From the NCBI GenBank assembly GCA_038153405.1, contig JAYOYH010000005.1:72176-136175 (forward strand): 64,000 nucleotides of DNA, read 5' to 3'. Shown here piece by piece: positions 42,001-51,000 of the stretch. A program made the position numbers. Origin of the DNA: Gemmatimonadota bacterium (lineage in GTDB: Bacteria > Latescibacterota > UBA2968 > UBA8231). Every line of letters begins with the position of its first letter. The stretch's first letter is position 1.

Positions 42001-45000
42001 GGCACCGCGCGAAACGTTTTCTATCGAAAAGGCAGGGCCGCTCTGTGCCGAAGCGTCAATGAATACACCGTCTGCCAAGAGCAAGAGTTGGTTGGTCTGG
42101 GCATAGCGCAAATCGGCATCCTGCTGTGCCACGCGGTCGAGTACGTGTCCGTTGGCAATGAAAACGTCCTGATCTGCATCGTTATCGGCATCAAAAAAGA
42201 GGGCGCCAAAACCCAAGGGCAGAAATGTGCTCTCGTGCAGTCCGACGATTTCGCTCTGGTCGCTGAACTTCCCATCCCCTTCGTTGCGGTAGAGCGTATT
42301 GCTCTCGCGCGAAAAGTTGGTCACGAGTACATCGATGTCGTCATCGTAGTCATAGTCGGCAGCGGCAATGCCCATACCTGCTTCGGGCTGGCCCTGGCCA
42401 TTGTAGGCCAACCCCGCTTCTAGGGCATTTTCGGCAAAGCGTTGACCATCATTTCGATAGAGAAAGTTGCGCATGCCGTCGTTGGCTACAAACAGGTCGA
42501 TATCGCCATCCAAATCGAGGTCGGTAGCCACTACGCCCAATCCCTTGCCGTAGACGTTAAAAACACCACTGGAGCGCGATATGTCGGTGAAGGCACCATC
42601 GCCCTCGTTGCGATAGAGCACGTCGGGAGCACCGTTATAGCGACGCGGACTACAATACGTGCGGCGATCACGCGGAACCAACAGCGCGCGACCAGCCGAA
42701 CTATTCGCGGTCGATACGGCGCTGCCGCACAGGCGATTGTTGCTCGGACTAGCGTCTAGATAATTTGCTACGTAGAGATCGAGATCGCCGTCGTTATCGG
42801 CATCAAAAAATGCAGCGCTGCTGCCCCAGTGCGGATCGCCTACGCCCGCTCCGGCCGTCTCATCGACAAAAGAACCCTGGCCCCCATTCCGGTAGAGCAC
42901 ATTGACGCCGTAATTGGTCACGTATAGATCGGCATGCCCGTCGCCGTTGTAGTCGCCAACGGCCACGCCCATGCCATAGCCCGCATCATCCGCACCGCTG
43001 TGCGCGCTCACGTCGACAAAGATCCCCTGCCGGCTGTGCAACAGGCGGTTGCGCACGACGTCCCCGGCCCGCTCTTGTTGAAGGGCGAATACCGCGCTGT
43101 CGACCTGCCCATCAAAGCGCAGCGGTGCCTGATACTCTTCAGCTACCCAGTGGCCATTCTCGTCGTTAGCCACTTCGTTGGACGGGCGAAAGATCCCCTG
43201 CCAAGGCCCCAGATCAAACCCGTCAACCAGATAGATATCTAGCCAGCCATCGCCGTCAACGTCGACGAAGGCGGCCCCTGAACCCATTGTTTCAAATAGG
43301 AAATAGTCGCCGCGCGCACCGCTAGTGTGGCGAAAAGCTATACCCGCATCCTGCGTGCCGTCGACAAAGTTAGGGCGCGAAGGATCCGGTCCACCGCAGG
43401 CATAGAGACAAGTGAGTGCACTCAAGACGAGTAAAGGACGATAAATAGCAGGATCTCCAAGCGAGGGCGATACGCATACAATGGGCACAGTGGACGCAAC
43501 AGCAATCCATATTTTCGTCCGTTAAAATAGAGGCACACCCCTTGAGGGCAAGCGCCCCCACCCATAGCAGGGGCTCGAGCCGCGGGCAAACCGAGTGCGC
43601 GCAACGCCCACTACATAATGGTGATCGGATTACCCGACCCGTCAAAGGCGTAATCGATTACCAACCAAAAACCACCGGCTACCGCCTCACCCAAGATCAG
43701 ACCGAGGAAAAAGGGCTTGAGCCGCTCGTAGAGCAGCGCGCCGCCCAGACGGGTTATAACCAGCTTAGATAGCCAAGCGACAAAGACGGAGAACCACACC
43801 TGGCCCGTGAGCCAGCCAATGCTAATGACAAATCCCAGCGGATGCAGTGGCCACCAATAAAAGCGGTGATGGCCCCACATCAGCATGCCTTCTATTAGAC
43901 CACCAATGCCGGTAAAGAGCCAACCGCGCCACACCGGCCCCTGCGGTTCGACAATAACCCGCGCCATATCGGCAAAGGTGCGCTGAGCCTGATGACGCAT
44001 AAAGAACGAGTGCAGGTTGATGCCGCCGTGCGTATAGCACATATCGAGGATAATCCAGGTAGCGCCGACTAGCGAAACGACAATGGCCAAGACCATGCCC
44101 CAAAACAGGCGTCCCTTAGGCCCTTTTACCGAATCGGCCAACTTCAGGCTGTTGGCGCAGGCGATCATCGGGAACAGGCGCATCTCCGACTGCCATATAT
44201 AGGTAAAAGTCATCGCCACCAATCCCTTGGCTCCGACGATCGACGAACCGATGCCGGAAAATACGACAAAGGCGGCAATCATCGGCGAGCGCGCCGTCGG
44301 CACCCCGGCAGCGGCGACCACGCGGGTGACAAAGACGTAGAACAGCAGGCTCGTGGCCAGAAACGCCGGTAGCACGATAAGAGGTATGCCGGAAGCCCAA
44401 AGCCAGTAGGCAACAAAGGCCAAGCTGCCCAAAAAGCCGAATACGGCCGTGCGATACGACAGCAGTTCATCGCTATCGTCCAAATCGCCCTGACCGCTCC
44501 ATGCCTTGCGCCAGACCGCGGCCAAATGGTGGCGACCAATCCACAGCGAGTAGAGGACGAATACGAGGCAGGCGCCCATCGACTGGTGCGTCAGATCGGC
44601 CGTTTGCGAAAAGGAATAGAGACTGAGCTGCTCGGTTGAAGCGATGCCCAAGCCCTTAAAAACGCTCTCTTGCACTTTGCCCAACACGTAAAACACCCAG
44701 ATGCTGAGCGAAATATCGAGATTGACCAAATAGAAAAATCCAATCCAGGCGAAACCGTAGTCTAGCGGCAGATGGATATTCGCGCCAAAGAGCTGCAGGC
44801 CGGGCAGCGACATATTCCAATCGGGCCAAGCGGGCCAATAGTGGTGCATACCCGATAGACCGGGCAGCAAAAAAGCCACGGCGAAGCCCACCCAAAGGGC
44901 GCGCTGGCGAAAAAAGGGCAACACCCACTGAAACGGCCCTTCGCTCCCTTCGATCATGCGCAGCGGCAGCTCGACCATGGGATAGGCCAGCCGTTCATTT

Positions 45001-48000: not shown

Positions 48001-51000
48001 CGTTGATCGACATCGCCAACCAGCAGCTTCAAGCGATCTTCTTCCTGCATACTGGTCGCGCCGAACAGCACGCCAAAAACCTGCTGAGCGCGCTGGCCGA
48101 TTGAATAGCCGTACTGCCGCGGTTCGACGCCGCGGCCGTCGAGCACCTTAACGGCATTCACTGCGCGCAGCGAACGCGGTTCGATCAAGCCGTAGAGGGG
48201 ACGGCCCAGCGCGGGAAAGAGCACGACGGTCTGGTCGTGCGTCTCCCAGCGCACGCCGACCGGTATCAACCCCTTACCCGTCGCCTTACCCGTAAACTTC
48301 TGGGCCCGTTCGCTCAGATCGGGCGCGTAGGAGATAGCTCCTTCTCCATCAAAGGCATAGGCCGCCATCAGATAGCTACCTATGGGCAACGCCTGAGCTA
48401 AGGCGACGCCGTTTTCATCCCCCAACAAATAGCGCATTGAGCGCACGCCCTTCACATCGCCTTGCTGCACCCCACCCAGCGTCACCAAGCCGCTGATAGG
48501 GCGATCAGGCACCTGCGAACGACGCGGAAACGCCCTCATCTTAAAGCGCACATCGCGCAGATTGTCTTTGAGCCGACTGCGCAGCGCAGCGGCTTCGAGC
48601 AATAGGCTATCGTCTCGAGCGGCCTGTATCACGAGCGCGCCAATTAAATCGCTCTGCCGTTGGGCATGTTCATACTGTACGCGCTCGGGCACATCGAGCG
48701 GCGAATCGGCGCCCTGACGCCCGTCGAAAATAGTCGCCAACGTCAGCGCAATGTGGCCCGCCTCCATCACGCGCTGCCCCTCGGTATTCAGACCGCCAGG
48801 CACGTAAGAGGACCAGTCCATACCGCGAATGGGACTGATGCCGTTGGCTAGCGCCTCGCGCCCCGAAACGACCGCTGTGCCCGCCTGCTCGGCATAGCGC
48901 ACAAAACGCCGACCAAAGGGCGCAAAGAAGCGCTTGAAAGCGAAGTCGCTGGCATTGTCCCAAATGCCCAACTCACCGCTCTGCGATGAAAGATCAAGGC
49001 CAATAAAAAGATCGATATCGAGCGCGTCGCGCTGCTGAGCGCGGTAGTGTGGATGGCGGCGCATATAGCGCTGAAGAAACGCACCGATGCCCTGGCGATC
49101 TTGAAAATGGGCCCCGCTGGCCAATACAATTACCGAGCGCGGCACCTCTTCTCGCCCTAGGCGATCGGCCAGTTCGAGTAGAGCGCCGATGCCTACCGCC
49201 GCTTCAGCGCCCGGTGCACGCGCCGGCACGAGCGAGTTGGCGTCGTAATAGGAGGAAACGAGTAGCGTCTCTTCACGCCGCTGGGCATCGCTGCCGGGAA
49301 AGCGCGCCCAAATATTCCACGCGGTCTTGCGCTGCCACTCCATGCGGCTAAACAGCTCGACCGAAACTTCGCCATCGGCGGCTCTGCGCCGCAGCGCATC
49401 GCCTTCGTGCGGATCGACCCAAAAGCGCGGCACGTCCAGCGGCACGTCAGCTACTTTTTCTTCTATTTCGCGTAGGGAAGTTGACGTTGGAGCAATAAAC
49501 ACGACGGCGCGCGCGCCCAGCAACGCGGCGTTGAGCCAGTTCGCTCCGCTGGTAAAGTCGAGTAAGACGACGCGCCCTTCTACCGGGCGGCCATTAAAGT
49601 CGCGCCATTCACCCCGCCCGGCATATATCATCGGCGCGCGCAGGCCTGCACTAGGCAAGGTCGGCGTGCGCGCGCCGTTGGGCCACAGACCCCACAAGCG
49701 CACCGGCGCCTCGCCTCGAACGGCGATCGAAGCACCGAGATCTAAGGGAACGACGACGGAAAACGAATCGCGCTGCACCTCGGCCGCGCCGCTGGCGCGC
49801 AAACGCGCTTCGACATAGTCAGCCGCTTCCCCATAGCCCGGATAGCCGACCACGCGCGACTCGACGGCGGCCAACCTTTCGACAACTGCGCGGATGGGCT
49901 CTTCTGCATCGACTAGCGCAAAGAACGACAGGAGCAGGGCACATGTAATGCGTATGCTATGCACGGGGTTCTTCGGCAAGAGCTATTACCTCAATATCAA
50001 CAACTTCTTGGTCGCTATCCCCGCGCCAGTACTCAGCCTGTATAAGTACACGCCGCTGGCCAGTGGGCGCCCTACCGCACTGCGTCCATCCCAAGCAACG
50101 GTATGGCTGCCGGCCTGCTGCCACCCCGATTGCAGTTGGGCCACGCGCTGGCCCAGCAGGTCGTATATGCTCAGCTCAACCGGACCGGCGGTGGCCGTGC
50201 CGTAGCGAATAACCGTCTCGCTGTTAAATGGGTTGGGGAAGTTCTGCGCCAAATACAATACGGCAGGCAGTCCATCGACCATGCGCACGGCCGTTTCGAC
50301 CGGCAGCGGCGTAGCCGTAGTCAACCGCAGTTCGTCTATGTAGAAGCGCCCCTCCAGGCTGCCCTGCAGCAATATGCGCTCAATCGGGCCCGTCAGGCCA
50401 AGCGACGCAATGGGCAGGGCGACATCCTGCCACTCGGCACGGGTCAGATCAATGCCCCCCTCGTCTAACAAGTTTACGTTGCGACCGGGTTTGACGAGTA
50501 GATTGAGCCGCGCACCGCGCGTTTGGCCCGCGTCGCCGGGATGGAATGCAAAACGCACATGCGTGTACCCCAGTGTCTCAATCGCACGCTCGGGCGTCAG
50601 GGCGAGATTCCACCCTGCGAACGCAACATCTCGCGCCTGGAAGGCGGCTGCGGAGCCGCGATATTCACCGGCAGCCATAGACGCTCCTTCCCAGCGGATC
50701 ACGCCGTCTTGCTCCACCTGCCAATTGGGCATCACGTCGTCTCTGACAATAAACAGATCGCGTCCGGGCAGCACGCGCAGCATTTTCCGCAGGCGCATCT
50801 CCAACCGCTCGCCCTCGACGTCCTGTATCAGCAGCACCTCTACGACGCGCTCTCCGGTGACATCGCCTATATCTAGCCCGCGGCGCAGGCGAAATACGCC
50901 GGCTTCCACCTGTTCGAGCGGCCAGTCGGCCGGGCCGCCAAAGGCGCGCAAATCCGCTACCGCGCGCACCGGCACGCCTTCGACCTGGGCTTCTATGCGA

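What a model noticed while it worked through the whole genome (the two positions that open the first line are those of the whole stretch)
43611..49979. Giant ATPase-less FtsX proteins with an M28 peptidase ectodomain, coupled and once fused to OPT-like permeases
Six paralogous 1,420-1,590-residue proteins carry two FtsX/MacB-type membrane modules and an ~800-residue outward-facing region with an M28 aminopeptidase-like domain; four stand in a three-gene cassette with a DUF6785/6784 permease and a second 660-875-residue permease that also has the OPT fold, a fifth (C8) has the second permease only, and in g00752 (C5:115786-122154, 2,122 aa) the giant and a DUF6785/6784 permease are one polypeptide. 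I read the cassette as a cut-and-import machine: a MacB-like mechanotransducer holding a peptidase over OPT-fold channels, fed in two loci by an Oar-like TonB-dependent receptor or ExbBD. New would be a physical FtsX-OPT partnership (Rosetta-stone fusion) [...]
Evidence so far: Giants g00953 (C7:95286), g03684 (C60:14815), g03399 (C49:10742), g01073 (C8:108868), g01798 (C17:6764) and g00752 are 33-52% identical over their length; second permease family g00951, g03682, g01800, g01072, g03398 37-71% identical. Gene order: C7 g00951-g00952(DUF6785)-g00953; C60 g03684-g03683-g03682; C49 g03400-g03399-g03398; C17 g01798-g01799-g01800; C8 g01073-g01072; none has an ABC_tran gene within 3 genes. g00752 residues 11-1465 align to g03399 (52%) and 1482-2108 to DUF6785/6784 g03047 (51%). 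The fusion is real: a 301-residue query across the junction matches end to end, without stops, inside open frames of 2135, 2124 and 2123 aa in 3 of 7 other genomes of the genus and of at leas [...]
(Added by a program. Inside this text positions count along the whole contig: contig position 72,176 is position 1 of the stretch shown here. "Call 12" and the like, gene names such as g00115 and contig names such as C1 are that model's own, and its searches are not shown. The text may have been shortened before it was handed on; [...] marks where a part breaks off. The agent that wrote the report below was given it as the finding of a first reader that could run no searches.)

Follow-up and report, generated by a model that had tools for sequence, protein, structure and literature searches.

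The report
ATP motor fused to OPT-fold carrier
One real 2,122-residue gene joins a membrane motor subunit with a peptidase-shaped but catalytically altered head to a carrier of the plant Yellow-Stripe fold; its ATPase is encoded elsewhere in the genome, and one such motor seems to serve dozens of scattered carriers, an arrangement I found described in no paper I could search.

Summary
The fusion is real: one open frame, same junction in five relatives, bridged by contigs of other runs. (1) Not ATPase-less: in relatives the giant lies in an operon giant–permease 2–unknown–PqqD–small FtsX–LolD-type ATPase; this genome keeps the small FtsX and ATPase on contig C18. (2) One MacB/FtsX module per giant, not two. 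(3) The M28+PA head lacks the catalytic Glu-Glu and last His in 104 of 104 relatives; a different conserved pocket replaces them. The fused DUF6785/6784 half has the YS1/OPT fold (Z 24.4). Giant, small FtsX and DUF6785 occur or are missing together in two phyla (44 with all, 15 with none, of 61 in the second), usually one small FtsX to many DUF6785 genes, and the fused permease groups with stand-alone copies. Best reading: a LolCDE-like type VII ABC motor with a ligand-binding head that serves exchangeable OPT-fold uptake carriers, like group II ECF transporters; the fusion hard-wires one pair. Contact, direction and substrate are inferred. The scan noted this system before on other genomes.

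The parts
43611..49979 (-). Fusion gene, 2122 codons (2117 from the GTG at 49964): giant type VII ABC permease plus DUF6785/6784 carrier
49908..49979 (-). Signal peptide or N-terminal hydrophobic segment (residues 1-24)
   Evidence: hydropathy; inference
48600..49907 (-). M28 aminopeptidase fold with inserted PA domain (residues 25-~460); site remodelled: Y244, D246, E259, H291, F292, D329, D419, R421, D425
   Evidence: model pLDDT 93; 2ek8 E 1.4e-23; 1rtq Z 28.0, rmsd 2.5, 255 residues; residue mapping; conservation
47985..48572 (-). Beta-rich domains (residues ~470-665); first is CarboxypepD_reg-like
   Evidence: secondary structure; weak Pfam hits in P0010 and P0016
47391..47912 (-). Three-helix stalk running into a family-specific bundle of three membrane helices (residues ~690-863); highly conserved, not FtsX-like
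46050..47342 (-). The single MacB/FtsX module: TM1, periplasmic core domain, TM2-4 with coupling segment (residues ~880-1310)
   Evidence: (MacB 5lil aligns over profile 885-1300)
45615..46052 (-). Conserved cytoplasmic C-terminal domain of the giant (residues ~1310-1455); START/VASt-like by a weak lead
   Evidence: conservation; atlas score 0.88, lead only
45540..45614 (-). Short, variable, acidic linker at the fusion point
43614..45539 (-). DUF6785+DUF6784 carrier with the YS1/OPT fold (residues ~1481-2122)
   Evidence: 7wsr Z 24.4, rmsd 4.0, 552 residues, next Z 6.8; Foldseek E 4.5e-7, TM 0.63

Best explanation
The gene encodes two subunits of an undescribed multi-subunit inner-membrane uptake machine. 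SHOWN: the folds, the operon, the joint inheritance, the copy numbers. INFERRED from LolCDE/MacB: the giant's one MacB module pairs with the small four-helix FtsX (C18:18826-19536) and two copies of the adjacent LolD-type ATPase (C18:19442-20329), giving an asymmetric type VII ABC motor with no pore of its own. INFERRED: the M28+PA head is a solute-binding receptor, not a protease; the solute crosses through an OPT-fold elevator carrier; ATP-driven movement of the motor loads, gates or resets that carrier. Permease 2 is the fixed partner (about one per giant); DUF6785 proteins are exchangeable specificity subunits scattered over the genome that share the motor, as S-components share the ECF module. 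This gene fixes one DUF6785 carrier to one giant. Likely cargo: small organic solutes such as sugar acids and other polymer breakdown products, not necessarily peptides. My odds: parts form one system 0.85; shared motor for many carriers 0.6; import energised or gated by ATP 0.45.
For: Operon with small FtsX, ATPase, permease 2, U331, PqqD in 5 of 20 small-FtsX loci of the own phylum; ATPase beside the giant in 12 of 22 loci outside the Latescibacterota-like set, small FtsX in 11; all 20 small-FtsX loci have the ATPase next door. C18 ATPase nests among operon ATPases with intact Walker A/B, signature and H motifs. Own phylum, 121 genomes: giant 107, permease 2 the same 107, DUF6785 107, small FtsX 101; family f10 0 of 13 for all. 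Second phylum, 61 genomes: 44 have giant, DUF6785 and small FtsX, 15 none, 2 lack one; 38 of 45 have one giant but 2 to 20+ DUF6785. 77 of 80 giant loci have an OPT-fold gene within 10 kb or fused, two of the three others end at the giant. Fused permease forms a clade (support 100) with stand-alone copies, apart from cassette copies. YS1 fold; YS1 is an elevator importer (PMC9691689, passages). 29 of 61 neighbours of stand-alone DUF6785 genes are small-molecule catabolic enzymes, against 16% of genes and 22 of 66 for MFS carriers.
Against: No experiment; no solved or modelled interface. The fusion is one event in the sample and none of 17 fused loci has permease 2 nearby. Characterised type VII systems work on the periplasmic side and typically do not move substrate across the membrane (PMC12646458, passages); YS1 runs on protons without ATP. 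Cytoplasmic PqqD, U331 and the START-like tail have no role in a simple uptake model. The neighbour enrichment used families picked from the neighbours themselves, so it is inflated. In the own phylum the joint absence is one family, one event; completeness of the second-phylum genomes was not given. Permease 2 was not folded; its OPT fold rests on homology to DUF6785 (93.5%).
Confidence: 0.45

Rival explanations
1. Envelope-building or export machine: the OPT-fold proteins deliver a lipid-linked or peptide substrate outward, the motor lifts it from the membrane as YbbAP or LolCDE do, and the remodelled head (H291, D246, D329, D419, R421) is a new enzyme or docking site that processes it; PqqD, U331 and the START-like tail select substrates in the cytoplasm.
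For: The altered pocket is almost invariant (H291 102, D246 103, R421 99, D419 99 of 104). Known type VII systems extract membrane substrates for a periplasmic partner (PMC12646458). PqqD in the core operon; PqqD as peptide-binding module is recalled. START/VASt lead, 0.88. Strong conservation of the single-copy core fits a housekeeping role.
Against: Tens of divergent DUF6785 paralogues among catabolic genes fit uptake better than one envelope substrate; the START lead is under 0.9.
Confidence: 0.25
2. Assembly factor: DUF6785 proteins are ordinary proton-coupled carriers, and the motor with its dead-peptidase head and permease 2 inserts, folds or proofreads them.
For: Explains one motor for many carriers and joint loss. 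Nicalin and nicastrin, M28-fold proteins, are profile hits; their non-catalytic roles in membrane-protein biogenesis and substrate gating are recalled.
Against: A permanent fusion of client and assembly factor, kept down to about 45-52% identity, and up to 8 giants per genome fit a working partner better.
Confidence: 0.12
3. One reading: an ATPase-free cut-and-import cassette with an active aminopeptidase over OPT channels, fed by TonB receptors.
For: M28+PA fold, OPT fold, fusion; E259, D329, D425 and H291 could hold one metal ion; TonB-receptor-like gene on C17, ExbBD on C7.
Against: Dedicated ATPase and small FtsX; 0 of 104 keep Glu-Glu or last His, 8 keep the first His; 1 peptidase among 57 scanned neighbours of stand-alone carriers.
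Confidence: 0.08
4. Sensor or regulator: the head senses a periplasmic ligand and the motor switches carriers on or off, in the manner of BceAB with its membrane partner.
For: BceAB-BceS precedent for a membrane partner (PMC12646458, passages); conserved cytoplasmic partners.
Against: No kinase or regulator among the conserved operon genes I mapped; overlaps in part with the best explanation.
Confidence: 0.1

Closest known systems
LolCDE and other type VII ABC systems (MacAB, FtsEX-EnvC, YbbAP-TesA, YtrEF, BceAB)
   Same: One MacB-type module (TM1, periplasmic core, TM2-4; MacB, YtrF, LolC, LolF are the PDB sequence hits); two unlike FtsX genes and one LolD-type ATPase gene, as in LolCDE; a hydrolase-fold periplasmic part, as TesA in YbbAP-TesA.
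   Different: Head fused in cis through an extra three-helix bundle; partner FtsX has almost no periplasmic domain; OPT-fold membrane partners, PqqD and U331; one small FtsX/ATPase pair for up to eight giants; no adaptor or TolC gene in the mapped operon.
OPT/YSL carriers (barley YS1, PDB 7wsr)
   Same: Whole-chain fold, Z 24.4 over 552 residues.
   Different: 9-12% identity, no PDB sequence hit and no OPT Pfam hit on the fused half; tied genetically, and here covalently, to an ABC motor; YS1 is a proton-driven homodimer (PMC9691689).
M28 aminopeptidases with PA domain (2ek8, YwaD, PaAP) and non-catalytic M28 folds (transferrin receptor, nicalin, nicastrin)
   Same: Fold and PA insertion.
   Different: Four of five metal ligands and the general base replaced by a different conserved set; carried on an ABC permease.
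Group II ECF transporters (analogy only)
   Same: One ATPase module, many scattered substrate subunits that share it (PMC4820897, passages); the gene counts here have that shape.
   Different: No homology of the membrane parts: MacB fold instead of EcfT, ~640-residue OPT fold instead of six-helix S-components; sharing is inferred, not shown.

Membership tests
Type VII ABC system | MacB/FtsX transmembrane fold with periplasmic core domain | tested here: met
   (sequence profiles; this module was not folded)
Type VII ABC system | Two FtsX-type halves | tested here: met
   not within the giant but giant plus co-inherited small FtsX; pairing inferred
Type VII ABC system | Cognate LolD/MacB-type ATPase with intact motifs | tested here: met
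Type VII ABC system | ATP-driven mechanotransmission | not testable with these tools
   needs structures or assays
Peptidase M28 | Fold | tested here: met
Peptidase M28 | Two-zinc ligands H, D, E, D/E, H and general-base Glu (roles recalled; positions from alignments to 2ek8 and 6hc6) | tested here: not met
   Y244, E259, F292, D329, D425 and H291; 0 of 104 complete; the last-His segment aligned at low score
OPT/YSL | YS1 fold | tested here: met
OPT/YSL | Sequence family PF03169 | tested here: not met
   no hit on DUF6785 copies; 1 of 32 permease-2 members at E 0.17
OPT/YSL | Proton-coupling aspartates of YS1 (D446, D490, D494) and peptide or metal-chelate cargo | not tested
   no residue-level structural alignment was returned; conserved acidic residues listed
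ECF transporter | EcfT, EcfA/A' and six-helix S-component | tested here: not met
   membrane parts have MacB and YS1 folds; analogy only

The most novel reading that the evidence does not exclude
A new class of ATP-driven importer: a single pore-less type VII ABC motor, through interchangeable receptor-bearing giants and a fixed OPT-fold adaptor, energises dozens of exchangeable OPT-fold elevator carriers, turning a fold known as a proton symporter into the translocator of a primary active system; it would be a main nutrient-uptake route of several little-studied phyla, and this fusion is the simplest unit to reconstitute.
Probability: 0.33. Interest if true: 0.9.

Novelty: new variant of a known kind. 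Interest (0 to 1): 0.7.

Why it matters
Type VII ABC motors are defined by their partners and are held to work outside the membrane; an OPT-fold carrier as partner is not among the described ones. The family is large (929 clusters at 50% identity with E up to 1e-30), nearly universal in this phylum and common in a second, and gives a testable role to DUF6785/6784, one of the most expanded membrane families in these genomes. The fusion plus the two C18 genes is a three-gene test system.

Tried and rejected
Complex prediction of the C7 giant's membrane helices with permease 2: no answer, score 0.04 against a mark of 0.32, controls not folded; the fused pair itself and the giant-small FtsX pair were not submitted. 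Assembly artefact for the fusion: rejected (third-position GC even across the gene). Second FtsX module in the giant: rejected. C13 MacB-locus ATPase as the partner: 49% to the C18 enzyme, outside the operon clade. DUF6785-permease 2 fusions suggested by 1,480-codon frames in G115 and G118: overlapping open frames, not fusions; likewise 2,200-2,450-codon frames of giants in G021, G024, G118. Independent fusions among the longer distant giants: none of the 15 scanned by Pfam or 9 by BLAST carries a permease. PDB sequence searches with both permease profiles: nothing. No RNA holder listed. U331: no named family. Literature: 'DUF6785' 0 papers; four of FtsX/M28/OPT/oligopeptide transporter/Thermofilum 0; two of Latescibacter/FtsX/peptidase M28 0; other searches showed nothing on this system in their listings. 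The library lacks most subscription journals and I read no supplements, where annotations of these genes could stand.
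Full report
Observation. The minus strand of window 43611-49979 is a single frame of 2122 codons. Homologues carry source names of Candidatus Latescibacterota, and the DNA occurs in marine and estuarine metagenomes. The junction is intact in G001, G002, G004, G011 and G022 (top rows only), in 23 of 120 listed homologues and in contigs of other runs. All 24 fused giants in my tree fall in one clade of 26 (SH-aLRT 99); of the two other members one keeps the first 42 residues of the permease. The fusion is thus one old event among the 64 rows sampled.

Anatomy. A model of residues 25-880 (pLDDT 93, pTM 0.89) shows an M28 fold with a PA insertion (2ek8 E 1.4e-23; 1rtq Z 28.0, rmsd 2.5 over 255), beta-rich domains, and a three-helix stalk that runs into three membrane helices. 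That bundle is not FtsX-like: profile probability 0.1% against the second module and 0.7% against a small FtsX, which match each other at 98%; each giant gives one FtsX match. The one MacB module spans about 880-1310. A conserved cytoplasmic domain follows (weak START/VASt lead), then a short acidic linker and the permease, whose model (pLDDT 92.7) matches barley YS1 alone: Z 24.4, rmsd 4.0, 552 residues, next Z 6.8; Foldseek E 4.5e-7. Permease 2 is homologous to it over 561 columns (93.5%) but was not folded.

The head is not a canonical peptidase. Alignments to 6hc6 and 2ek8 put Y244 at the first His, E259 at the bridging Asp, H291-F292 at Glu-Glu, D329 at Asp and D425 at the last His (the last segment aligned at low score; the roles of these positions are recalled). 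Of 104 sequences (the query and the 103 of 150 listed distant representatives with 1,380-1,800 residues) 0 keep either Glu or the last His, 8 keep the first His. Yet H291 (102), D246 (103), D419 (99) and R421 (99) are nearly invariant: a rebuilt pocket for a ligand, one metal ion or a new reaction.

The system has an ATPase. Earlier notes of the scan suggested that it lies elsewhere; I tested this. Of five LolD-like ATPases in the genome, three have their own permeases; one follows a 236-residue FtsX on C18 and one is an orphan on C2. Among 80 giant loci (the best 80 of 588), 22 come from records outside the Latescibacterota-like set, mostly titled Armatimonadota; 12 of these have an orthologue of the C18 ATPase beside the giant and 11 the small FtsX, against 0 of the other 58 (longer unrelated ABC proteins in three loci not counted). 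In the own phylum, 5 of 20 small-FtsX loci show giant, permease 2, U331, PqqD, small FtsX, ATPase in a row, and all 20 have the ATPase adjacent. G000 keeps the first four genes on C8 and the last two on C18. The C18 ATPase nests among the operon enzymes, the C2 orphan is their sister (FastTree).

Joint inheritance and copy number. Own phylum, 121 genomes with G000: giant 107, permease 2 the same 107, DUF6785 107, differing in two incomplete genomes, small FtsX 101 at E below 1e-30, a cut I chose after seeing seven weak matches near 1e-17; the seven giant-only genomes are 60-89% complete; family f10 has none in 13 of 13, which is one event. Second phylum, centred on G132, 61 genomes of unstated completeness: 44 have giant, DUF6785 and small FtsX, 15 have none, G137 lacks the giant and G179 the small FtsX; in 22 of the 44 the small FtsX lies within 12 kb of a giant by my count of the tables. 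The fused permease groups (support 100) with stand-alone copies such as C39 and L022-L026, not with cassette copies. Stand-alone copies sit among sugar-acid and small-molecule catabolic genes: 29 of 61 neighbours against 16% background and 22 of 66 for MFS carriers, a comparison inflated because the families were chosen from those neighbours.

Mechanism. By analogy with LolCDE, giant plus small FtsX plus two ATPases form an asymmetric pore-less motor; type VII systems are described as doing work on the periplasmic side through partner proteins (PMC12646458, passages read). Here the partners are carriers of a fold that works as a proton-coupled elevator in YS1 (PMC9691689, passages read). The one-to-many gene counts resemble group II ECF transporters, where many S-components share one module (PMC4820897, passages read). 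I therefore read the head as a receptor, permease 2 as the fixed partner, DUF6785 as exchangeable specificity subunit and the fusion as a hard-wired pair (0.45). Against: no interface evidence, one fusion event, no permease 2 near any of 17 fused loci, and cytoplasmic PqqD, U331 and tail domain unexplained.

Novelty. No paper on DUF6785 or on this combination turned up (listings of 67, 70, 105; one passage of PMC2678158 and passages of PMC4454575 did not describe it); the library lacks most subscription journals and no supplements were read. The scan's own unchecked notes describe the same system, including fusions and the full operon, on other genomes; a word search found none with the shared-motor reading. 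I class it as a new variant of type VII ABC systems, with a one-in-three chance of being a new class of importer.

Noticed in passing
G000 C2:108259-109032 (L028:3260-4033): Orphan LolD-type ATPase, single copy at 81-95% identity in 36 of 40 family genomes, sister to the operon ATPases; no system gene near it in 15 loci. Possibly a second motor subunit.
   Followed up: partly
G000 C8:105427-106422 (L029:3428-4423): U331: cytoplasmic protein of the core operon with no Pfam family; two internal repeats (hhalign 94.8%) and WxCxxC-like motifs in relatives.
   Followed up: partly
G000 C8:105072-105497 (L029:3073-3498): PqqD-family protein in the operon; in L149, L150 and L154 it stays with the small FtsX and ATPase when these leave the giant.
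   Followed up: partly
G000 C18:17017-18768: The detached small FtsX-ATPase pair lies behind an S41/PDZ protease gene here and near one in 7 of 20 loci.
   Followed up: no
G000 C8:113758-114671; L018: Upstream of the C8 giant: a Hpre_diP_synt_I protein with a weak ECF S-component hit and a NusG_II protein; similar genes lie upstream in G021.
   Followed up: no
window 34361-43488: Four ASPIC/UnbV FG-GAP repeat proteins and TPR proteins; three follow the fusion on the same strand, and similar genes follow it in G001.
   Followed up: no
window 53435-55957: 840-residue protein without Pfam hit between a sulfatase and a PhyH gene; same order in G001, where the 862-residue GSDH/FlgD gene before the fusion is not seen.
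   Followed up: no
P0180, P0185, P0200, P0226, P0249, P0212: Distant giants carry added domains: Big_5 arrays (up to 3,053 aa), LysM, rubredoxin, zinc ribbon.
   Followed up: no
L176 (G092); L172 (G103): G092 has DUF6785-giant-DUF6785-giant in tandem with no permease 2 in 20 kb; the giant-DUF6785 locus in G103 is in pieces.
   Followed up: no
L037-L050; L146:11839-14718: Permease 2 variants of 860-1,077 aa with a large insertion; one carries a Reg_prop propeller hit.
   Followed up: no
window 59814-61481: Lipase maturation factor (LMF1) family protein between MFS genes.
   Followed up: no
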